DNA of 64,000 nt from a virus, in the IMG/VR virus record IMGVR_UViG_3300036835_000374, positions 482 to 64,481 of that record; one strand, given 5' to 3'. A program made the translations under genes and the position numbers. Shown one piece after another: positions 107 through 38,168 of this stretch (positions within the stretch are counted from its first letter, which is position 1; every line of letters begins with the position of its first letter). The notes beneath the pieces are model-generated. The model searched no databases. It had not been told where the DNA came from and saw nothing but the letters and a program-made list of their open reading frames with translations.

Positions 107-1153
107 ATGGCCACTCCGATGACCGCGGCGCAGGCCGTCGCCCAGCTGAAGAAGTGGCAGATCCGGTACGTCGAGGTCCCCGGCTGGGCCACCCACAACC
201 GCAACAGCAAGGGCGCCTGGGGACCGCTCAACGGGTTCATCTGGCACCACACCGGAGCCGACGTCCCCGACGCCCGCACCTACGCGGCAGGCACCCTCTA
301 CAACGGCCTCAGCGATCTACCCGGCCCGCTGTGCCACTTCTCCATCGGCCTGGACGGCACCGTGTACCTGGTCGGCTGGGGGCGTGCGAACCATGCGGGC
401 GGCGGCGACCCGGTGACGCTGCAGCATGTGATCGCCGAGGACTACACGGGCCAACTCCACCCCACGAAGGGCAACCTGACAGGGGTGGACGGCAACGCCC
501 ACTTCTACGGGGTGGAGATTCAGTACTCGGGCAGTCACACGATGAGCACCGCCCAGTACGCGACAGCCCGCCGGCTGTCCGCAGCCATCCTCGACTTCCA
601 CGGCTGGTCGGAGAAGTCCGTCATTGCGCACGGCGAGTGGTCGTCGGACAAGTGGGATCCCGGATACGCCCCCGGCAAGATCATGGCCATGCCTGCGGTG
701 CGCGCGGACGTGGCCTCCACCCTCGCAGCAGGACCGACCCAGGAGGATCCCGTGGCCCTGACCCCGGATGACATCAGCAAGGTCGCGGACGCCGTGTTCG
801 CCAAGCTCGCCGCAGGTGGCGGCGTGCTGGAGAACAGCGACCTCGACCGGATCATCGACCGCGACCACGTACCCGCAGCCCGGCCGCCGTACAACAACAG
901 CGACTACTTCGAAGCCGACGGCGTCACCCCGAAGAACACGACGTGGAAGCTCGGGTACGCGCTCCAGACCAACGCCGAGTACAGCCGCCACGCTGTCGCC
1001 CTGCTGGAGGCCATGCAGGACGCTGTGGGCGCGGTCGCTCTGACGGACGAGCAGATCACCGCGATCGCCGTCCAGGTGGCCGCCGCGCCTGGTCTCACCG
1101 ACGTCATCGCCTCGAAGGTCGCCGCGGACATCGCCGGACGCCTCGCCCAATAG
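107..1153 (+). CDS. Endolysin, N-acetylmuramoyl-L-alanine amidase (Amidase_2 type)
   Basis: IWHHT, CHF, GRANHAG, GVEI and IAHGEWSSDKWDP zinc-amidase motifs. GGGAG RBS before ATG 107. Followed by a holin. Confidence 0.9.
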   Translation: MATPMTAAQAVAQLKKWQIRYVEVPGWATHNRNSKGAWGPLNGFIWHHTGADVPDARTYAAGTLYNGLSDLPGPLCHFSIGLDGTVYLVGWGRANHAGGGDPVTLQHVIAEDYTGQLHPTKGNLTGVDGNAHFYGVEIQYSGSHTMSTAQYATARRLSAAILDFHGWSEKSVIAHGEWSSDKWDPGYAPGKIMAMPAVRADVASTLAAGPTQEDPVALTPDDISKVADAVFAKLAAGGGVLENSDLDRIIDRDHVPAARPPYNNSDYFEADGVTPKNTTWKLGYALQTNAEYSRHAVALLEAMQDAVGAVALTDEQITAIAVQVAAAPGLTDVIASKVAADIAGRLAQ

Positions 1154-1189
1154 ACCCTCTGCCCCAACCAGTAGAAGAGAGAGCCCGTC

Positions 1190-1453
1190 ATGACCACTCC
1201 ACTCCCCGACGTCAACACCGTCCTCAAGACCGGCAAGACCTACGCCATCGACCTCGCCGAGAGAATCATCTGGTCCTTCCTCGGCGGCACCGTCGCCGTC
1301 ATCGTCGCGGCCGGCCCGGCGGACATGTTCAACGCCAGCTTCTGGCAGGCCGCCGCCACGGGCGGTGTCGCCGCGGTGGTGTCGCTCGTGAAGGGCCTGT
1401 TCGCGCGTGGGATAGGCGCGAGTAACTCGGCGTCTACTGCACCGCGGGTCTGA
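1190..1453 (+). CDS. Holin (r1t-like)
   Basis: 87 aa with two hydrophobic helices and a DLAERIIWSFLGG motif, directly after the endolysin. Confidence 0.75.
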   Translation: MTTPLPDVNTVLKTGKTYAIDLAERIIWSFLGGTVAVIVAAGPADMFNASFWQAAATGGVAAVVSLVKGLFARGIGASNSASTAPRV

Positions 1454-1465
1454 TCGGAGCCGCAC

Positions 1466-1810
1466 GTGCCGGATGAGCCGACACTCGGCGAGGTCGTCAG
1501 ACGCCTGGAGGCCGTGCACCAAGACCTCAAGGAGGACTTCCGCGACGTCGCCGGGCGGCTCGACAGCAAGGTCTCGATCGAGCGCTACCAGTACGAGAAG
1601 GAAGCCGCCGCCGAACGGGAGCGGGTCCTGACGGAACGGGTCCGCGCGATCGAGGAGGCACGGAAGCAGGAAGCCCGGGAGAAGCAGGAAGCGGAACAGA
1701 ACGCCGCCAACCGGCGTGCTTCTGACCGCCGTCTGATTTTCTCGGCGCTGATAGCCCCCGTGATCATGCTCTTGTTGACCCTCTACCTCGGAAGCCGGGG
1801 AACCGCATGA
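1466..1810 (+). CDS. Lysis-cassette membrane protein (coiled coil plus C-terminal TM helix)
   Basis: Charged helical N-terminus and C-terminal [19 protein letters not shown]. Overlaps the next gene (ATGA). Confidence 0.6.
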
Positions 1811-2436
1811 CAGCGGGCCACGCCAACTGGCGCCAGCAGCAGCGCCGTAAGGATGCCGTGTTTGCGGTGCTGCTGCTGGGCGGGCTTGCTGCTGTGGTCG
1901 TGCTGGCGCTGTGGGTGCAGGGCCTGTCGCATGATCTGCGGGCGGCACAGGATGACCGGGCGGCTTTGGCGCAGCAGGTGCGGGAGTTGGGCGGGAAGCC
2001 GGTGGCGGGCCCGCCGGGCAAGAGCGTTACCGGCCCGCGGGGTGAGGTTGGCCCGTCGGGGCCGCCTGGCCCTGCCGGGTTGCCGGGCAAGGACGGGAAG
2101 GCTGGTGCTGCTGGTAGTCCGGGTGTGTCGGGGCCGCCGGGGGTGGTGGGTGCTACTGGTCCGGCTGGGAGTGCGGGCGTGCAGGGTCCGCCGGGCCCGC
2201 AGGGTGAGCCGGGTCCGGCTGGTCCGGCGGGGCAGGACGGCAAGGATGGCGCCGATGGGCGGGACGGGCAGACGTGCCCGGACGGCTATCACTTGGAGGC
2301 TCCGTCGTATGACCCGGACGCGTTGGTGTGTCGCAGGGATGGGGCTTCGGATCCGTCGCCGGCGCCGGGGGATGGGAAGGGTGGGCCGTCTCCGTTGGCT
2401 CTGGCGTGGGCTATGACGCGGCGGCAGTACGCATAG
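1807..2436 (+). CDS. Membrane-anchored collagen-like protein
   Basis: N-terminal TM helix, short coiled coil, long Gly-X-Y run ([21 protein letters not shown]...), then a CPDGY...C motif. Confidence 0.8.
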
Positions 2437-2445
2437 GAGGCTCTG

Positions 2446-2664
2446 GTGGGTGTGGTGTGGAACGGGCTGCTCGCGGTGGCTGCGGGCGCGGTCGTGGTGG
2501 GTGGCGGCTTCGAGGTGTATGCGCTGCGCACGAAGCGGGCTGGGGACACATTGTCGGAGCACATCCGGCCGTGGGCGAAGGCGCATCGCGGGCTGTTCCT
2601 TGCGCTGTGTGGGCTGCTGGTGTTCGTGGGTGGCTGGCTGCCGCATCACATTCTGGGCGGGTGA
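2446..2664 (+). CDS. Small membrane protein
   Basis: GGAGG RBS, two hydrophobic segments, DTLSEHIRPW motif. Confidence 0.55.
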   Translation: MGVVWNGLLAVAAGAVVVGGGFEVYALRTKRAGDTLSEHIRPWAKAHRGLFLALCGLLVFVGGWLPHHILGG

Positions 2665-2680
2665 CGGGCCGGTGGCTCGG

Positions 2681-2833
2681 ATGCTGAGCCGGATGCGTCC
2701 GTCGTTCTGCCCTGCCTGCCGTCGGAGCCCGGGGCTGGACTGCCCGGATGCGGGGGTGGGCAAGAGGGCGCAGCGGGCCCGGGAGAAACGGGAGTGGCGG
2801 CGGGAGGTTTTCACGGAGGCCCGTGAGAACTAG
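2681..2833 (+). CDS. Small Cys/Arg-rich hypothetical protein
   Basis: MLSRMRPSFCPACRRSPGLDCPD...; last gene of the rightward lysis unit. Confidence 0.4.
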   Translation: MLSRMRPSFCPACRRSPGLDCPDAGVGKRAQRAREKREWRREVFTEAREN

Positions 2834-2851
2834 CCTGACCTGCGGGAAGCC

Positions 2852-2880
2852 ATCACTTTACGGGCGCCCGCAAAGTGATC
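2852..2880. terminator. Hairpin at the convergence of the lysis and GntR units
   Basis: ATCACTTT-ACGGGCGCCCGC-AAAGTGAT near-perfect inverted repeat between convergent genes. Confidence 0.55.
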
Positions 2881-3058
2881 AAGCCGCCCTGATGGGCTCG
2901 CCGCGTGCCGCCGCCGCCCATTCCTCGTAGAGCCGTTCCAGCGCTGCCCGCCCCTCCCCGCTGAGCCGTACCCGCGGGTCCACCCACAGTGCGCGGATGT
3001 CCTCGTTCACGGCCGCAGCAGAGCGCAGAGTGCCGTCAGGCAAAGAAGCGGGGGACAT
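2879..3058 (-). CDS. Small hypothetical protein downstream of the GntR regulator
   Basis: MSPASLPDGTLRSAAAVNEDIRALW..., 59 aa, same strand as GntR. Confidence 0.55.
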   Translation of the reverse strand: MSPASLPDGTLRSAAAVNEDIRALWVDPRVRLSGEGRAALERLYEEWAAAARGEPIRAA

Positions 3059-28223: not shown

Positions 28224-29159
28224 GTGAACCGCCCAACCCGCACCCAGCGCATCCGCGACGCCGCCCTCTGGTGCCGCGACAGCGCCCTCGGCGGACTCGG
28301 CTACACCCTCGTCCTCACCGTCGCCGCCGCCGGATGGGCCGCCAGCTTCATCGGCCTCCACGACTTCGGCATGCACCACATGGGCCTCAGCCAAAACGCC
28401 GCCTGGCTCGTCCCCATCACCTTCGACGGCGCCCCCGCCGGCCTGTCCATCGTCGTCGCCCGCGCCTCCACCCACGGACGGCCCGCCCTCGTCTGGCGGC
28501 TCCTGATCGTCGGCTTCACCGGCCTGTCGTCGTGGATCAACTACCAGCACATCGACGATCCGCTCGGTCGCGGCGTCGCCGCGTTCATGCCGCCGTCCGC
28601 GGTGATCCTCTTCGAGGGCCTCATGTCCGAAGCACGGGCCGCAGCACAGCGCCGCCTCGGCCGCGCGATCCCGCGGATGCACCCGCTGCGGTGGGTGTTC
28701 GACCGGTCCGGGACCCTCGACCTGTACCGCCGGTACATCCTCGGCCTGCCACTGCCAACGGCTCTCGATGCCACCCCTGCCAGGCCGCCAGCGCCTGCCA
28801 CGAACCCTGCCAGCGCCCTGCCAGCCGAGGGTGCCAGCCGGGTGCCAGCCCCTGCCAGCCAGCCCCGCCAGCAGCCTGCCAGCCCCACCCTGCCAGCACA
28901 GGCGCCAGTGGCAGCGCCCGCGCCGGAGCAGCCCGCCACGCCTGCCAGTGCCAGCGACGCCAGCCAGGGCCGCGACCTCGACGAGGTGGCAGCCGCCTAC
29001 CGCTCCCTCCGCGCCAGCCTCGGCGTGCGCCGGCCATCATCCGCGAAGCTCGGCGAAGCCCTCGGCGTGTCCCGGTCCCGCGGCCAGCAGCTCCGCGAGC
29101 AGATCGAGACCCACCCCGACTACGCGGCGGAGTTCGCTCCGGCCCTGAAAAGCGCGTGA
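28224..29159 (+). CDS. DUF2637 membrane protein with C-terminal HTH (Spd-type)
   Basis: ASFIGLHDF, AWLVPITFDG, SSWINYQH and MPPSAVILFE motifs, four TM helices, C-terminal SAKLGEALGVSRSRGQQL HTH. Confidence 0.8.
   Translation: MNRPTRTQRIRDAALWCRDSALGGLGYTLVLTVAAAGWAASFIGLHDFGMHHMGLSQNAAWLVPITFDGAPAGLSIVVARASTHGRPALVWRLLIVGFTGLSSWINYQHIDDPLGRGVAAFMPPSAVILFEGLMSEARAAAQRRLGRAIPRMHPLRWVFDRSGTLDLYRRYILGLPLPTALDATPARPPAPATNPASALPAEGASRVPAPASQPRQQPASPTLPAQAPVAAPAPEQPATPASASDASQGRDLDEVAAAYRSLRASLGVRRPSSAKLGEALGVSRSRGQQLREQIETHPDYAAEFAPALKSA
28778..28954 (+). repeat. TGCCAG direct-repeat array (10 exact copies plus variants)
   Basis: Copies at 28778, 28808, 28819, 28832, 28843, 28853, 28877, 28891, 28943 and 28949, in two different codon phases. 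Confidence 0.85.
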
Positions 29160-29170
29160 GGTGACGTGCC

Positions 29171-31081
29171 GTGACTGACGCACCGAACGTCTGGAAGACC
29201 GCATACGGGCCCCTCCCGCGCCGCGACACGTCACGTCACCTCAAGCGGCTGCGGGGCGTTCTCGCAGGTCGCTGGCGGTACCTACTCCCGATCGGAGCAG
29301 CCCCCGCCTGGGGTGCGTGGATCTACACCGAACACTGGCTCACCGACGTGACATGGCGTGAACCCCTCGCCTACGGCGGCACCGGCGTTCTCGCCCTCAG
29401 CGGCACCGTGTGCGCAGCCGTCCTCGGCGTCCGCAACCCCGCCGCCCTCTACGCCGGCACCTTCACCAGCGGCATCCTCACCTGGTCCGCGTGGCAGGTG
29501 ACAGACCCGTCCCTGCCAGGCCTGGCAATCGGCGCCGTTGGCAGCCTGGGTGCCAGCGTCCCCTACTGGGCGTGGCTGGCACGCCACCTCCTCGACCGCG
29601 ACAAGCTGGCAGCCAAGACTGGCAAGCTGGCACCCCCGGACTCTGGCAGCGTGCTGGCACCCGACGACGTGGCAGGCGCCCTCGCTGCCACTGGCACCCC
29701 GGGCGCCAGCCTCGACCAGATGCACCGCCACCCCGACGGCGCCTGGACCGCCATCGTCAGCCTGCCCGTTGGCAGCAGCCCGCACGACATCGTCGGCAAC
29801 GCCGGCCGCATGGCGCGCCTGCAAGCCGCGCTCCGGCTGCCCCCGGGCTGGACCCTGGAAGCCGAAGACGGGGGAGCGTCGCACCACCTGATCGTCACCG
29901 CCCGCCCGCCAGCCCCGCCACGCGCCGAGGTCGTCATCCCCGACGTGCATCCGATCGTCGACCACCTCGGCGAGTGGGACCCGTGGCAGCCGCTCCTCGC
30001 CGCCCTGGACGTCGAGACCGGCGAGTCCGTGTTCCTGCACCTTCTCGGCCGGGCCGGGATCCTCATCGCGGGCCTGCAGCGCATGGGCAAGAGCGTGCTG
30101 CTGTCGGTGATCGTCGCGCATCTGGCACTGTCGAAGGCGCGGTTGATCCTCGCTGACGCCAAGCTCGTCGAACTCTCTTTGTGGGCGCCGCTGTGCCAGC
30201 GCCCGGACGACTTCGTAGGCCGGGACCCGGAGGCGTTCCTCGCGAAGCTGCTGGAACTGCAGACCGAGATCGACCAGCGGTACGCGCGGCTCGTTGAGGA
30301 AGGCCGCACCAAGGCCGCACCGGGCGACAACTGGGAGCCCATCGCTCTCATCGTCGACGAGCTCGCCGCGTTCATCGACATCCCAGACCGAAAACTCCGC
30401 GGGAAGATCGTGTCCGTTCTCCGCGACATCGTCTCCCGCGGTCCCGCATGTCTGGTGCCCGTGATCCTGGCGACACAGAAGCCTGAAGACAAGGTGGTCC
30501 CGTCGCAGATCCGCGACGTGTGCGGGCAGAAGGTCGCACTCGCCACGACCACACCGCAGATGACCGACACGATCCTTGGCCAAGGGTGGGCGTCCCGCGG
30601 CGCAACGCCGCACCTGTTCGGCGAGACCGACAAGGGCTCCGCCTGGATGCTCGAAGACGGCAGCCGGCCGCGGCAGGTGCAGACGTTCCCGTTCGAGCCG
30701 CCTGCCCGCCGCGAAGTCATCGACTACGCGCACAAGCTGTGGCCCGACCGTCCCGGGGCGCGGGTCCCGCTGCCCGGCGCCGACGAGCCCGATCCGGACC
30801 CGGACGGTGGCGGCAGGCCGCGGCTGCGGTCGGTGCCGTGCTTCCCGGACGGGACACGGATCCCGGACAACCGGGTCGGGTTGTGGCAGGCGATGGACCG
30901 TGCCGGTGGTGGCGGGTTCACGATCAACGACCTGGTGGCGTTGGGCTTGCCCGGCTACAGCGCCCGCACTTCGGTGGATGGTCCGCTGCAGCAGTGGCGG
31001 CGGTCCGGCTGGGTGGTGGAGATCGGCAAGCACGGTCGGGCGCAGTTGTTCGCTCTGGCCCGGCACGCGAAGGCGGCATGA
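29171..31081 (+). CDS. traB: TraB-like FtsK/SpoIIIE conjugative DNA translocase
   Basis: N-terminal TM helices, Walker A GLQRMGKS, Walker B IVDE, LATQKP motif and C-terminal wHTH. Confidence 0.88.
   Translation: MTDAPNVWKTAYGPLPRRDTSRHLKRLRGVLAGRWRYLLPIGAAPAWGAWIYTEHWLTDVTWREPLAYGGTGVLALSGTVCAAVLGVRNPAALYAGTFTSGILTWSAWQVTDPSLPGLAIGAVGSLGASVPYWAWLARHLLDRDKLAAKTGKLAPPDSGSVLAPDDVAGALAATGTPGASLDQMHRHPDGAWTAIVSLPVGSSPHDIVGNAGRMARLQAALRLPPGWTLEAEDGGASHHLIVTARPPAPPRAEVVIPDVHPIVDHLGEWDPWQPLLAALDVETGESVFLHLLGRAGILIAGLQRMGKSVLLSVIVAHLALSKARLILADAKLVELSLWAPLCQRPDDFVGRDPEAFLAKLLELQTEIDQRYARLVEEGRTKAAPGDNWEPIALIVDELAAFIDIPDRKLRGKIVSVLRDIVSRGPACLVPVILATQKPEDKVVPSQIRDVCGQKVALATTTPQMTDTILGQGWASRGATPHLFGETDKGSAWMLEDGSRPRQVQTFPFEPPARREVIDYAHKLWPDRPGARVPLPGADEPDPDPDGGGRPRLRSVPCFPDGTRIPDNRVGLWQAMDRAGGGGFTINDLVALGLPGYSARTSVDGPLQQWRRSGWVVEIGKHGRAQLFALARHAKAA
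29522..29696 (-). repeat. Inverted array of the same hexamer (CTGGCA, 8 exact copies)
   Basis: Copies at 29522, 29576, 29606, 29619, 29627, 29643, 29654 and 29691, again in two codon phases. Confidence 0.8.
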
Positions 31082-35711: not shown

Positions 35712-38168
35712 CTACCGGGCGATCCACCCACCACCCGACGCCAACGGCAGCAGCTCAAGACTGTCCCACTGCGCGGCCAACGACGCCGACGCCGACCCGT
35801 TCACCGTCTCACTGCCCGCCGCAGCCACCGTCACCGCGTTCCCGCTGGAGTCCGTCTTCGTCACCAGCAGCCGCCGGCACCTGCCTGCCGCCGTCGGCAG
35901 CGTGACCGTGAACGTCCCACTGCTCGCGTCGGCCTGAACCGACTCGTCGAACGTCGAAGCCGTGTACGCCCCCGTGACCGCGACCGCCGGATACGAGAGC
36001 TGCCCGTCGAGGATGTCGTAGCCGACAGGGTGATCGAGAGTGAGGTTGGCGCGCGTGTACAGGCCGGTGAGGACCACGTCGCCGCGCGCTGTGCTGGAGG
36101 CGAAGCCGGAGTTGTTGTCGCCGAACCGGGGGGTGCTCGTCTCCGTGTCGACCCGCAGGTGCAGGAACGGTCCGAGACCGCCGGAGCCCGCGCCGATGAT
36201 GTAGACGAGGTACGTGCACGCCTCGATACTGAGGAGGGTGGCGACGATCGCGTGCGTGCTGCCCACCGACGAGTAGTAGGTGCCGACCGGGCAGAACGCG
36301 GCCCAGCAGTACAGGATCCGCATCCCGTACACGTCCGCGTGCTCGGTGACGAACACCCCGTAGGTGTAGCCGCCGTGGCAGGTCACGTTCCGCAGCAGCA
36401 CCAGGTCGTTGTTCCCGGACGCAGGCAGCAGCAAGCCGGGACACAGGCCGTTCGCGAAACCGCCCGGCGAGCTGTAGTCACCGCCGGCCACGGTGCCCGC
36501 GGTGCCGTAGGCGAAGTTCTCGATGGCGGCGTTGGCGAGACCGGTGAGATCGGCTGCGCCGTAGGTGAAGCCGTTCGCCGAGTGCGTCGTCAAGACCGAC
36601 AGGTTCCGCAGGGTGACGTGCATGTTGGAGAACACGCCAGGGCTCACGCCGTAGCCGCCCGGCTGGCTTGGGCCGCCGATCACGGCCGCGTTCCCCGCCG
36701 CGTTGATCGATGCGATCTGCGCGGCGAACGAAGCGAACACCCCGAACGACACGAGCGTGGCCCCCGACATCTGCGGCACCGTCTGCTCCCAGTGCTGCAC
36801 CGCCGCCCCATCCGCGGGCCCCTCGAAGGTCAGCACGACCTTGCTGCCGGTGGTGGCCACGACCGGCAGCGTCAGCTGCGAGTTGCCCTTCGTCGCCCCG
36901 CCCGTGACCAGCGGCCCGGCGATCCCGTAGAACCGGCCCGACGGAGCCGCAGGGAAGCGGATGGTGGCTGCACCGTGCGCCGCCGCATACGTGCCGGCCG
37001 CGTCGATCGCCGACTGGATCGCGGCAGTGTCGTCGGTCGCCCACATCACCAGCGCGTTGGTCACGTTGCCGCCGGAGGCATTCGCCGCGGCCAGCGTCAC
37101 AGAGGTCGAGGAATCGACGGTGCTGATCGTGGTGACCAGCGTCGTCACCCCGGACGCCCCGGCACCCTTGACGAGGATCGCCTTGCCCTGGTCCCCGGCC
37201 GTGAACGCTGCGGTGGCGCTGGTGAGCGTCGTCGACCCGGAGGACATCGCCCCATCGGTGACGACCTGCCCGTCGCCCACCGCGCCGTAGACGTTGTCGG
37301 TGACGTCGAACACCCACGCATCCGTGCCGGATGCCGCGTCCTGCCACACTGCAGTCGTGGAACCGGTCGCGGTCAGCACCTGCCCGGAGGATGGCGTCCC
37401 CGACACCCCGATCCCGTTGACCTTCGCGACCGTCGGATCCGGGTACGTGCCGGACAGGTCCCCGCCAGCAGGCCCGGTCGGTGTCCGCGCATCCGACAGA
37501 CGGGCATCGTCGCCCTCGCACGCCGTGCCGCCGCTCGCGCCGTAGGTGACGTTCAGGGTGCGGTCCGCGGCGAGGGTGCCGCCACCGGTCAGGCCGGTTC
37601 CGGCGATGATCTGCGTTGCTGCTGCGGCCCTGGTCGCTGTCTGCGTGTCGGTGTAGCTCCGGTCGCCGTGCGGGTCAGCCGCCGCAACGTGCGAGGCGAC
37701 GGCCGCTGCCGCAGCTCCGGAAGCGTCGGCGCCGACATCCGCGGCGGCCAGAGTGACTACGCCGGTGTGCCCGTTGACGGACAGCACGGACGGCGACACC
37801 ACCGTGCCAGCCGTGGAGCTGGTGGGTGCCACGTCCGGGAGCGCCACCGTCGGCACGGATGCGGGCAGGCTGATGCTGTAGGAGCGGGGCGGCTGACCGG
37901 TGAAGTTCTCGTCGACCCGGTAGGTCCAGTCGGTCGGGGTGAATCCGTCCGCGTCGGTCGCGAGAACGGGCCCGAGCGTGAACGTGCCCGACGCGCCCAG
38001 GGTGGCGTTGACGGGGCCGAGGACGATCAGCCCGTGCATGGAGGAGACGACGCGCTCCACGGACGGGGTGAGCGTGACCGTGCCCGCGGCGGCCGTGCCG
38101 TCGGGGTTGGCGAGGCCGCTGGTTCCGGCGTTGAGGGTGACGGAGTCGACCCCGGCAGGAAGGCCCAT
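35712..38168 (-). CDS. Spike/fibre-like protein with probable pectin-lyase-type beta-helix
   Basis: Fibre motifs VLSVNGHTGVVTL, HVAAADPHG, GTGLTGGGTL and GDLSGTYPDPTV; YGAVGDG...DDTAAIQSAIDAA...IRFP (pectate-lyase-3-like start); C-terminal FTVTLPTA...TKTDSSGNAVTV domain. Confidence 0.75.
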   Translation of the reverse strand: MGLPAGVDSVTLNAGTSGLANPDGTAAAGTVTLTPSVERVVSSMHGLIVLGPVNATLGASGTFTLGPVLATDADGFTPTDWTYRVDENFTGQPPRSYSISLPASVPTVALPDVAPTSSTAGTVVSPSVLSVNGHTGVVTLAAADVGADASGAAAAAVASHVAAADPHGDRSYTDTQTATRAAAATQIIAGTGLTGGGTLAADRTLNVTYGASGGTACEGDDARLSDARTPTGPAGGDLSGTYPDPTVAKVNGIGVSGTPSSGQVLTATGSTTAVWQDAASGTDAWVFDVTDNVYGAVGDGQVVTDGAMSSGSTTLTSATAAFTAGDQGKAILVKGAGASGVTTLVTTISTVDSSTSVTLAAANASGGNVTNALVMWATDDTAAIQSAIDAAGTYAAAHGAATIRFPAAPSGRFYGIAGPLVTGGATKGNSQLTLPVVATTGSKVVLTFEGPADGAAVQHWEQTVPQMSGATLVSFGVFASFAAQIASINAAGNAAVIGGPSQPGGYGVSPGVFSNMHVTLRNLSVLTTHSANGFTYGAADLTGLANAAIENFAYGTAGTVAGGDYSSPGGFANGLCPGLLLPASGNNDLVLLRNVTCHGGYTYGVFVTEHADVYGMRILYCWAAFCPVGTYYSSVGSTHAIVATLLSIEACTYLVYIIGAGSGGLGPFLHLRVDTETSTPRFGDNNSGFASSTARGDVVLTGLYTRANLTLDHPVGYDILDGQLSYPAVAVTGAYTASTFDESVQADASSGTFTVTLPTAAGRCRRLLVTKTDSSGNAVTVAAAGSETVNGSASASLAAQWDSLELLPLASGGGWIAR

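What the first reader, a model, noticed from the sequence alone, without database searches (positions are those of the whole stretch)
28778..29696. Two oppositely oriented arrays of the hexamer TGCCAG hidden inside the spd and traB coding sequences
Seen: 10 exact TGCCAG copies at 28778-28954, and 8 exact reverse-complement copies (CTGGCA) at 29522-29696, with 2 forward copies at 29514 and 29551. In both genes the motif falls in two codon phases (PAS/GAS versus LPA/VPA; LA versus TG/SG) and forces unusual codons such as GCA, CCA and CCT, so selection looks DNA-level. Known: TraB wHTH domains recognise short (8-bp) direct repeats in clt loci. Inference: these arrays are the cis-acting transfer locus, or a centromere-like site for the DUF2637 HTH, with orientation providing loading polarity.
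Basis: partly seen in the sequence, partly recalled or inferred. Interest (0 to 1): 0.8.

Follow-up and report, generated by a model that had tools for sequence, protein, structure and literature searches.

The report
Inverted DNA-site arrays hidden in phage genes
A Streptomyces tailed phage has about twenty copies of the DNA word TGCCAG written into two neighbouring genes in opposite orientations; they are kept by selection on the DNA, and probably dock a DNA-binding membrane protein beside a plasmid-type DNA pump.

Summary
There are 10 forward TGCCAG at 28778-28954, in the linker of a DUF2637 membrane protein that ends in an HTH tail. There are 8 reverse copies at 29522-29696, in the linker of a TraB-like FtsK/SpoIIIE translocase. 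These are the two densest hexamer clusters in the 67-kb replicon, which is a temperate siphophage, not a plasmid.

Shuffles that keep the protein and its codon usage give about 0.7 copies where 10 are seen, and 1.2 where 8 are seen. All nine relatives that share the same HTH tail keep both arrays in the same orientation. One of them has a TraB only 29% identical.

Relatives with a nearly identical TraB DNA-binding domain but a different tail lack the arrays. Two of them carry CGCCAG-type words instead. So the word follows the DUF2637 tail, not TraB.

Best reading (confidence 0.4): these are DNA sites for the tail HTH. They would tether phage DNA at the membrane next to the pump, like a plasmid transfer locus (clt). 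Rivals are traB regulation by the same protein, recognition by TraB, and RNA pairing between the two arrays.

Earlier notes from this scan describe similar arrays in DUF2637 genes of other genomes, so the pattern recurs. I found no publication describing it.

The parts
28224..29159 (+). Gene for a 311-aa membrane protein: DUF2637 domain with four hydrophobic segments, then a Pro/Ala/Ser linker, then a C-terminal HTH tail.
   Evidence: Pfam PF10935, E 5e-33, residues 28-175. Translation. GC3 0.88.
28745..28966 (+). Upstream array: 10 exact forward TGCCAG plus degenerate TGCCA(C/A) and CGCCAG sites. Consensus S-TGCCAG-Y, degenerate 11-bp period. It encodes the interdomain linker.
28977..29135 (+). 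Coding region of the predicted three-helix HTH tail (residues about 252-304). Helix-turn-helix at 29040-29111, with the conserved motif LGEALGVSRSRGQQLR.
   Evidence: AlphaFold2 on 26 tails, pLDDT 84-91 over the helices. All weak fold matches are HTH DNA-binding domains. GntR-like signature, E 0.19. Invariant columns.
29153..29247 (+). Central inverted repeat of tandem pentamers: (GTGAC)n over the traB ribosome-binding site and GTG start, and (GTCAC)n inside codons T-S-R-H. It lies between the two arrays.
   Evidence: Inverted repeat I6, 21 nt, 90% complementary. Present at the traB start in the window and all 13 other loci examined. RNA hairpin -56.4 kcal/mol, z -2.6.
29171..31081 (+). Gene for a 636-aa TraB-like translocase: N-terminal hydrophobic region, linker, FtsK/SpoIIIE ATPase (GLQRMGKS, IVDE), C-terminal winged helix.
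   Evidence: Pfam PF01580, E 5e-7. PHROG 1358 FtsK/SpoIIIE-like, E 2e-27. Translation.
29514..29556 (+). Two forward copies at the inner edge of the downstream array. The first abuts a reverse copy and forms a perfect 14-bp palindrome, TGCCAGGCCTGGCA, at 29514-29527.
   Evidence: The copies at +343 and +380 recur in most type-A relatives.
29522..29696 (-). Downstream array: 8 TGCCAG on the minus strand (CTGGCA on +). It encodes the TraB linker between the membrane region and the motor (codons 118-176).
   Evidence: Rare codons GCA and ACT are fixed at LA and TG positions in all type-A relatives. Relatives with another tail use different codons for the same residues.
30866..31057 (+). Coding region of the TraB C-terminal winged-helix domain. 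Recognition helix RTSVDGPLQQWRR at 30965-31003.
   Evidence: AlphaFold2 pLDDT 80, topology H-H-H-beta-beta. Foldseek probability 0.99-1.0 to PerR/Fur/MarR winged helices.

Best explanation
The two arrays are protein-binding DNA sites of about 8 bp (S-TGCCAG-Y). They are written into the coding sequence of two interdomain linkers, where the protein tolerates them.

Their most likely reader is the HTH tail of the DUF2637 membrane protein, which is encoded between the arrays. Many tail domains, held at the membrane by the four-helix DUF2637 domain, would coat the two oppositely oriented arrays. This would tether this stretch of phage DNA beside the TraB-like pump made from the next gene. In function that is the counterpart of a plasmid clt locus, with recognition moved from the pump to its membrane partner.

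Shown: selection on the DNA, conserved orientation, linkage of the word to the tail type, and predicted HTH folds.
Inferred: actual binding, membrane tethering, and any role in DNA transfer or spread.
For: 1. The protein sequence and codon usage do not explain the arrays.
- First gene: 7-10 copies observed against 0.5-1.0 expected in every one of 9 type-A loci tested (0 of 1000-3000 shuffles).
- traB codons 100-190: 5-8 against 1.2-2.2, reached in 0-2 of 2000 shuffles.
- L142: 5 against 0.29.

2. Residues shared by all TraBs (VLAPD, ATGT) use CTG-GCA and ACT-GGC only where the tail is type A. L008, L009 and L001 use other codons for the same residues. Sites are gained and lost as Leu and Ala codons change together.

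3. The arrays follow the tail, not TraB.
- L142: TraB core 29% identical, wHTH 42%, tail 49%. Both arrays are present.
- L008 and L009: TraB core 88-91%, wHTH 90-92%, tail 24-26%. No TGCCAG arrays.
- L004, L143, L006 and L012: DUF2637 domain only 28-34% identical, tail 71-89%. Arrays are present.

4. Loci with the second tail type carry GCGCCAG in the linker (8 against 2.6 in L008). They carry its reverse complement in the same part of traB (L009 CCTGGCG: 4 against 0.39, 0 of 2000).

5. Blocks of nucleotide homology start at about -400 and end at about +500 relative to the traB start. These are the outer edges of the arrays.

6. Position 5 is always A. TGCCGG occurs 0 times upstream and twice downstream, against 83 and 63 exact sites, although it is commoner than TGCCAG in the background (19 against 11). 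An RNA helix would tolerate that change as a G-U pair.

7. The upstream array has a period of about 11.3 bp, which is not a multiple of 3.

8. The tail is predicted to be a three-helix HTH.

9. In a 40-kb relative, closely paired TGCCAG sites occur only at this locus.

From the literature: TraB clt loci are clusters of short direct repeats that can overlap tra genes (PMC4447253, PMC3583192). SpdB2 binds DNA and TraB, and homologues in actinophages were proposed to help phage DNA spread (PMC4447253).
Against: - No binding was tested.
- The link between tail and word rests on about three independent contrasts (L008/L009, L011, L142). The upstream array adjoins the tail-coding DNA, so co-inheritance alone explains part of the link.
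- The tail matches no Pfam family, and its fold matches are weak (best E 0.11).
- L011, with a third tail type, has GAGACC x16 only in the linker and no array in traB. Its count is mostly explained by Glu-Thr repeats in preferred codons (15 against 11.9).
- The two arrays are on one transcript and pair in the predicted RNA fold.
- The phage has an integrase and a full virion module, so a need for transfer without virions is conjecture.
Confidence: 0.4

Rival explanations
1. Same reader, different purpose. The tail HTH binds both arrays to control traB, which in plasmids is a lethal 'kil' gene. Control would work as a roadblock or as a loop closed over the traB start. The tail would then act like the GntR-type TraR/Kor repressor of plasmids, fused to the membrane protein.
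For: The arrays flank the traB ribosome-binding site and start, and a universally conserved hairpin that sequesters them. The tail has a GntR-like signature, PSxxxLxxxLGVSRS. traB-traR form a kil-kor pair in most plasmids (PMC4447253). All the evidence for tail binding applies here too.
Against: No promoter-like site was found between the arrays. About twenty sites is many for an operator. Direct repeats with a period near 11 bp look more like a coating or tethering array than a dimer operator. A membrane-anchored repressor is unusual.
Confidence: 0.2
2. This was the first reader's main idea. The arrays are the clt locus, read by the TraB C-terminal winged helix as TraB recognition sequences. 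Their orientation would set the direction of loading, as KOPS does for FtsK.
For: The sites are 8-bp-class repeats clustered in and next to traB, as in pSVH1, pJV1 and pWTY27 (PMC4447253, PMC3583192, PMC5133688). TraB here has a confident winged-helix C-terminus. Orientation is strictly conserved. L142 keeps a similar recognition helix (RTSISDPLQAWKAR).
Against: L008, L009 and L011 have 79-92% identical TraB C-termini, with the same recognition helix in L008 and L009 and one substitution after it in L011. Yet they have 0-1 CTGGCA in traB, where 1.3-2.6 are expected, and no TGCCAG array within the 5.6-7.9 kb fetched. The word shows no strand skew elsewhere in the genome.
Confidence: 0.12
3. The signal is RNA. 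UGCCAG repeats in the first gene pair with CUGGCA repeats in traB on the shared mRNA. This closes a loop of about 700 nt around the traB start and controls its translation or its cleavage by RNase III.
For: The minimum-energy fold of the 981-nt stretch pairs 28778-28856 with 29569-29696 through 64 base pairs, in nested order. The arrays are exact reverse complements on one strand. In the second tail type both arrays change together, from T to C. A local hairpin already covers the traB start.
Against: Wobble-compatible variants favoured by codon usage (TGCCGG) are absent from the upstream array. Controls with shuffled spacers give mixed results, z from -0.1 to -3.2, so complementarity beyond the words themselves is not consistent. 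The period near 11 bp fits a DNA helix. Both arms lie in translated regions. There is no Rfam match.
Confidence: 0.13
4. There is no function. The arrays are by-products of repeat slippage in low-complexity linkers, or short homologies that merely mark recombination joints between mosaic phages.
For: Both arrays lie in low-complexity linkers. A 34-bp period, close to an in-frame 33-bp unit of three sites, is also detectable. Mosaic joints coincide with the outer edges of the arrays.
Against: Slippage does not explain the same word in inverse orientation in a second gene. It does not explain fixed rare codons at conserved TraB residues. It does not explain persistence where the surrounding proteins are only 29-49% identical.
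Confidence: 0.05

Closest known systems
clt loci with TraB recognition repeats of Streptomyces conjugative plasmids (pSVH1 GACCCGGA; pJV1 nine 9-bp repeats; pWTY27 four TGACACC). Sources: PMC4447253, PMC3583192, PMC5133688.
   Same: A cluster of short (7-9 bp) repeats in or beside the translocase gene, next to a TM-FtsK-wHTH pump. The clt of pWTY27 also overlaps tra coding sequence.
   Different: Here there are two arrays in inverse orientation, both wholly inside coding linkers. The word does not follow the TraB winged helix but the HTH tail of the neighbouring membrane protein. The host element is a tailed phage. No requirement in cis has been shown.
SpdB2 of pSVH1, the spread protein of Streptomyces plasmids (PMC4447253).
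   Same: An oligomeric four-TM membrane protein encoded next to traB. It binds DNA and TraB. Homologues in actinophages were proposed to aid the spread of phage DNA.
   Different: SpdB2 is reported to bind DNA non-specifically. The protein here carries a discrete HTH tail and a matching site array. tblastn found no similarity to plasmid Spd genes beyond three DUF2637 hits.
Streptomyces plasmid-phage pZL12 (Zhong et al. 2010, J Bacteriol 192:3747, as cited in PMC4487206 and PMC3583192).
   Same: A virion-forming Streptomyces element that also carries a tra gene and transfers by conjugation.
   Different: pZL12 is a 90-kb plasmid prophage with ParAB. The element here is a 67-kb phage with an integrase. 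I could not read that paper and did not compare the sequences.
Phage lambda ori iterons inside gene O (from my own knowledge, not tested here).
   Same: Binding sites for a protein are written into the linker-coding part of that protein's own gene.
   Different: Lambda's sites form one array for a replication initiator. Here the phage's replication initiator is a different gene 10 kb away.
parC centromere of plasmid R1: two blocks of five 11-bp repeats flanking the par promoter, bound by ParR (from my own knowledge, not tested here).
   Same: Two blocks of repeats with an 11-bp period flank a regulatory region. They are coated by many copies of a small DNA-binding domain, and serve both to handle DNA and for autoregulation.
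   Different: All parC repeats are direct and non-coding, and they work with an actin-like motor. Here the blocks are inverted and coding, and they sit beside an FtsK-type pump.
KOPS and SRS, the polar loading sites of FtsK and SpoIIIE.
   Same: An 8-bp word whose orientation matters, read by a helix-turn-helix domain linked to an FtsK-family pump.
   Different: KOPS are spread over the whole genome with strand skew. TGCCAG is at background level and unskewed outside this 950-bp locus.

Membership tests
clt / TraB recognition sequence locus | A cluster of short (about 7-9 bp) repeats on the mobile element, in or next to the tra gene. | tested here: met
   18 exact sites plus 2 forward copies within 920 bp spanning the junction of the two genes. 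Consensus S-TGCCAG-Y.
clt / TraB recognition sequence locus | The repeat is specific to, and read by, the recognition helix of the cognate TraB winged helix. | tested here: not met
   Comparison only. Loci with the same TraB recognition helix but another DUF2637 tail lack the word. A locus with a 29%-identical TraB keeps it. Binding itself was not tested.
clt / TraB recognition sequence locus | Required in cis for TraB-dependent transfer. | not testable with these tools
   Needs mobilisation assays.
TraB-type conjugative translocase | N-terminal membrane region, FtsK/SpoIIIE ATPase with Walker A and B, and a C-terminal winged helix. | tested here: met
   PF01580, E 5e-7. GLQRMGKS and IVDE in the translation. 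Winged-helix model with pLDDT 80 and Foldseek probability 1.0 to PerR/MarR. Best plasmid relative is 65% identical. Transfer activity was not tested.
SpdB2 spread protein | Sequence homology to plasmid SpdB2, and a four-TM oligomeric pore protein beside traB. | tested here: inconclusive
   The architecture and gene position fit. tblastn against 72,556 plasmids gave only three DUF2637 hits, none annotated Spd. No SpdB2 reference sequence was compared.
GntR-family HTH | Match to the GntR winged-HTH profile. | tested here: not met
   No Pfam hit for the tail even at E 10. The only match is a weak profile hit to a GntR structure, E 0.19. The model shows three helices and no wing.
KOPS-like polar guide sequences | Over-representation across the genome, with strand skew that switches at a defined point. 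| tested here: not met
   Outside the locus there are 14 forward and 17 reverse copies in 66 kb, with no pattern.
Invertible DNA segment flanked by inverted repeats | Both orientations of the enclosed segment are found. | tested here: inconclusive
   All 14 loci have the same orientation. Only assembled contigs of four soil metagenome runs were available, and these cannot show minority forms.

The most novel reading that the evidence does not exclude
DUF2637-HTH proteins and the site arrays written into their own gene and the neighbouring gene form a self-contained, swappable specificity cassette (sites, reader, sites). The cassette anchors a mobile genome to the membrane next to an FtsK-type pump. 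It decides which DNA is passed through hyphal cross-walls or into neighbouring hyphae. This would give temperate Streptomyces phages a route of spread without virions, with recognition specificity held by the membrane partner and not by the pump.
Probability: 0.3. Interest if true: 0.85.

Novelty: new variant of a known kind. Interest (0 to 1): 0.68.

Why it matters
In Streptomyces plasmids, TraB is the only protein known to read the transfer locus. If a membrane partner reads it instead, and in a phage, two things follow. The model of how double-stranded DNA is chosen for transfer in actinomycetes would need a second recognition mode. A family of temperate phages would also gain a testable way to move DNA without capsids. 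The locus is also a clear case of cis sites hidden in coding sequence. The word dictates the amino-acid make-up of two protein linkers and fixes rare codons, which matters for gene annotation and for designing synonymous recoding.

Tried and rejected
- Scan of IMG/VR for three TGCCAG words at 4-8 bp gaps. It returned 119 or more unrelated hits, mostly 12-bp coding tandem repeats. None had TraB or DUF2637 homologues or dual arrays. The pattern is too unspecific.
- The search for related loci in genome contigs with TraB and with the tail alignment found nothing. Metagenome contigs gave one locus. Viral contigs gave only the relative already held.
- INPHARED phages: only a 30%-identical FtsK-like gene in phage Gilgamesh, and no hit for the DUF2637 protein.
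- The whole contigs of L008 and L009 could not be searched. A TGCCAG cluster elsewhere in those genomes is therefore not excluded.
- Sequencing runs: no RNA holder was listed. The four soil metagenome runs laid are contigs only. They showed the same sequence and no informative joints.
- Rfam: only a chance miRNA-model hit at E 0.89.
- Promoter scan: no sigma-70-like site in 26-32 kb. The scan does not cover other promoter types.
- RNA duplex test with shuffled spacers: mixed z-scores, not decisive.
- Synonymous divergence in traB is lowest over codons 120-181 (0.17 against a gene mean near 0.31). Individual sites turn over, so site-by-site conservation alone is not significant.
- Chi-like recombination hotspot: considered because mosaic joints sit at the array edges and the phage has a Rad52-type recombinase. 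The word is not over-represented elsewhere, and I could not test a host genome.
- Complex prediction was not used, because no protein-protein claim is made.
- The pZL12 paper (PMC2897331) is not held.
Full report
**1. The observation**

There are ten forward TGCCAG at 28778-28954, eight CTGGCA at 29522-29696, and two forward copies at 29514 and 29551.

The window covers nearly all of a single 67,330-bp contig with 68.7% G+C. That contig holds only 26 forward and 25 reverse copies in all. When every hexamer is ranked by its densest 180-bp cluster, TGCCAG and CTGGCA, with hexamers that overlap them, take the top places.

The codon phases and the encoded peptides are as described. The codons involved are rare in this genome: CCT, CCA, GGT, GCA, ACT and TCT.

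- Shuffling synonymous codons within the first gene gives a mean of 0.69 TGCCAG (maximum 4), against 10 observed.
- Resampling codons from genome usage gives 0.21.
- For traB the figures are 9 CTGGCA against 3.2, reached in 1 of 3000 shuffles.
- Within traB codons 100-190 they are 8 against 1.2, reached in 0 of 2000.

Tandem Repeats Finder reads the upstream array as a degenerate 11-bp repeat with 9.9 copies. That period explains why the word cycles through reading phases.

**2. The genes and the replicon**

The first gene (28224-29159) encodes a 311-aa protein. It has a DUF2637 domain (E 5e-33) containing four hydrophobic segments, then a Pro/Ala/Ser linker that holds the array, then a C-terminal tail.

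The second gene (29171-31081) encodes a 636-aa protein of the FtsK/SpoIIIE family. It has Walker motifs GLQRMGKS and IVDE. Its downstream array lies in the linker between the membrane region and the motor.

The replicon is a temperate siphophage, not a plasmid. It has a tyrosine integrase, a GntR regulator, a Rad52-type recombinase, an exonuclease, WhiB and a replication initiator. It also has a large terminase, portal, major head protein, a 1532-aa tape measure, tail proteins and an endolysin. The genome tool also treats it as a virus record.

The name 'spd' is an inference from gene position. tblastn of the protein against plasmids gave only three DUF2637 hits, and against phages none.

**3. 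Relatives**

A protein search found about 45 TraB relatives at 62-89% identity. I fetched DNA for fourteen loci. They include a prophage in a Streptomyces chromosome (L143), S. ipomoeae contigs (L004, L005) and 125-kb Streptomyces plasmids (L001).

Nine relatives share the window's tail (conserved motif LGEALGVSRSRGQQLR): L003, L004, L006, L007, L010, L012, L133, L142 and L143. With the window this makes ten 'type A' loci. Every one has 5-10 forward TGCCAG in the linker and 5-9 CTGGCA in the same part of traB. Summed over the ten loci:
- upstream sites are 86 forward and 9 reverse;
- downstream sites are 70 reverse and 17 forward;
- the consensus is S-TGCCAG-Y.

The shuffle tests repeat in each locus tested. 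In the first gene, 7-10 copies are seen against 0.5-1.0 expected. In traB codons 100-190, 5-8 are seen against 1.2-2.2.

**4. What the arrays follow**

A table of segment identities shows a three-way mosaic.

| Loci | TraB core | TraB wHTH | DUF2637 domain | Tail | TGCCAG arrays |
|---|---|---|---|---|---|
| L008, L009 | 88-91% | 90-92% | 28-32% | 24-26% | absent |
| L142 | 29% | 42% | 56% | 49% | present |
| L004, L143, L006, L012 | 83-91% | 91-95% | 28-34% | 71-89% | present |

- L008 and L009 have the same TraB recognition helix as the window. They show 0-1 CTGGCA in traB, where 1.3-1.6 are expected.
- L142 keeps nine forward TGCCAG (0.64 expected). It also has five CTGGCA at +438 to +579 of a TraB region whose N-terminal part is only 31% identical (0.29 expected, 0 of 2000).

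The codon alignment makes the same point at single residues. The peptides VLAPD and ATGT are shared by all TraBs. They are spelled CTG-GCA and ACT-GGC only in type-A loci.

The loci with the second tail type carry GCGCCAG in the linker. They carry its complement in the same traB region (L009 CCTGGCG: 4 against 0.39). So the word changes from T to C in both arrays together with the tail.

L011, with a third tail, has GAGACC sixteen times in the linker only. This is largely explained by Glu-Thr repeats.

Profiles of nucleotide identity put the edges of the shared block at about -400 and about +500 relative to the traB start. These are the outer edges of the two arrays. The unit that is inherited together is therefore array, tail, traB start, array.

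**5. DNA or RNA**

The arrays are reverse complements on one transcript. The minimum-energy fold of 981 nt pairs them through 64 base pairs. Three results weigh against an RNA helix but do not exclude it.
- TGCCGG would pair through a G-U wobble, uses the commonest Pro codon, and is commoner than TGCCAG in background sequence. Yet it is absent from the upstream arrays: 0 against 83 exact sites.
- Complementarity beyond the words is not consistent across loci. Spacer-shuffle z-scores run from -0.1 to -3.2.
- The upstream sites show a period of about 11.3 bp, close to the DNA helical repeat and not a multiple of three.

**6. The candidate readers**

The tail, folded with 26 homologues, gives three helices with pLDDT 84-91. 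All of its weak structural matches are HTH DNA-binding domains: sigma region 4, LexA and MntR. A profile search gave a weak match to a GntR regulator over PSxxxLxxxLGVSRS. Pfam finds nothing.

The TraB C-terminus folds as a winged helix with pLDDT 80. Foldseek gives probability about 1.0 to PerR, Fur and MarR domains.

Both proteins could in principle read DNA. The comparative data favour the tail.

**7. Mechanism proposed**

Many copies of the membrane-anchored tail bind the two oppositely oriented arrays. They hold this stretch of the phage genome at the membrane beside the pump encoded by the next gene. This is a clt-like docking locus whose specificity sits in the membrane partner.

Three published findings are consistent with this.
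- SpdB2 binds DNA and TraB, and phage homologues were suggested to help phage DNA spread (PMC4447253).
- clt loci are repeat clusters that can overlap tra genes (PMC3583192).
- A plasmid-phage that transfers by conjugation exists: pZL12, cited in PMC4487206 and PMC3583192.

Binding, tethering and transfer are all inferences. A regulatory role for the same binding (control of traB) is the closest rival.

**8. Novelty**

I found no paper on DUF2637 tails or such arrays. The term occurs in two unrelated papers.

Earlier notes of this scan describe arrays of other words in DUF2637 genes of other phages and plasmids. One follow-up reached the same idea of tail-word covariation. These are unchecked AI notes, not independent evidence. 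My own data reproduce the pattern for three tail types.

The feature that seems particular to this locus is the second, inverted array inside traB. I rate the finding a new variant of a known kind, clt-like cis sites.

Noticed in passing
window 29153-29247; also L001, L003-L013, L142, L143 at the traB start: A conserved inverted repeat of tandem pentamers. (GTGAC)2-3 covers the traB ribosome-binding site and GTG start. (GTCAC)2-3 lies about 55 nt downstream, in codons T-S-R-H, and uses rare TCA and CGT codons. It is present in every relative, including the 29%-identical TraB and the 125-kb plasmid family. It folds as an RNA hairpin that hides the start (-56.4 kcal/mol, z -2.6). It could be translational control of a toxic gene, an operator, or the true TraB site.
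   Followed up: partly
window about 28770 and about 29690 (relative to the traB start: -400 and +500): Mosaic recombination joints between related phages coincide with the outer edges of the two arrays. Either the cassette is kept intact by selection, or the repeats themselves favour exchange.
   Followed up: partly
window 29514-29527: A perfect 14-bp palindrome, TGCCAGGCCTGGCA, where a forward and a reverse site abut at the inner edge of the downstream array. It is only partly conserved in relatives.
   Followed up: partly
L001:8039-8240 (Streptomyces zaomyceticus plasmid NZ_CP107934.1): Five CGACCC within 200 bp, just 3' of the 65%-identical traB. This is the classical clt position. The plasmid has no adjacent DUF2637 gene and no TGCCAG arrays.
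   Followed up: no
L011:785-1181: A relative with a third tail type carries GAGACC sixteen times in its linker, mostly as in-frame Glu-Thr. It has no counterpart array in traB. The amino-acid make-up of the linker changes with the repeated word across tail types (Pro/Ala/Ser, Ser/Ala, Glu/Thr/Arg).
   Followed up: partly
L003:1500-2989 and proteins P0115, P0121, P0122, P0126: The same HTH tail and TGCCAG linker are also found on a protein of about 410 aa whose N-terminal part has no Pfam DUF2637 match. The tail plus array therefore moves as a module between different N-terminal domains.
   Followed up: no
L143 (Streptomyces sp. NBC_00024 chromosome, CP108298.1, about 6.30 Mb): A close relative of the cassette, with both arrays, sits in a bacterial chromosome and is presumably an integrated prophage. 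It is a possible strain for experiments.
   Followed up: no
window 35712-38168 (-) and 59900-64560 (-): An 818-aa gene resembling a tail fibre or pectin lyase lies outside the tail module, and a block of reverse-strand genes follows the tail genes. I saw these only in my gene calls and PHROG hits.
   Followed up: no
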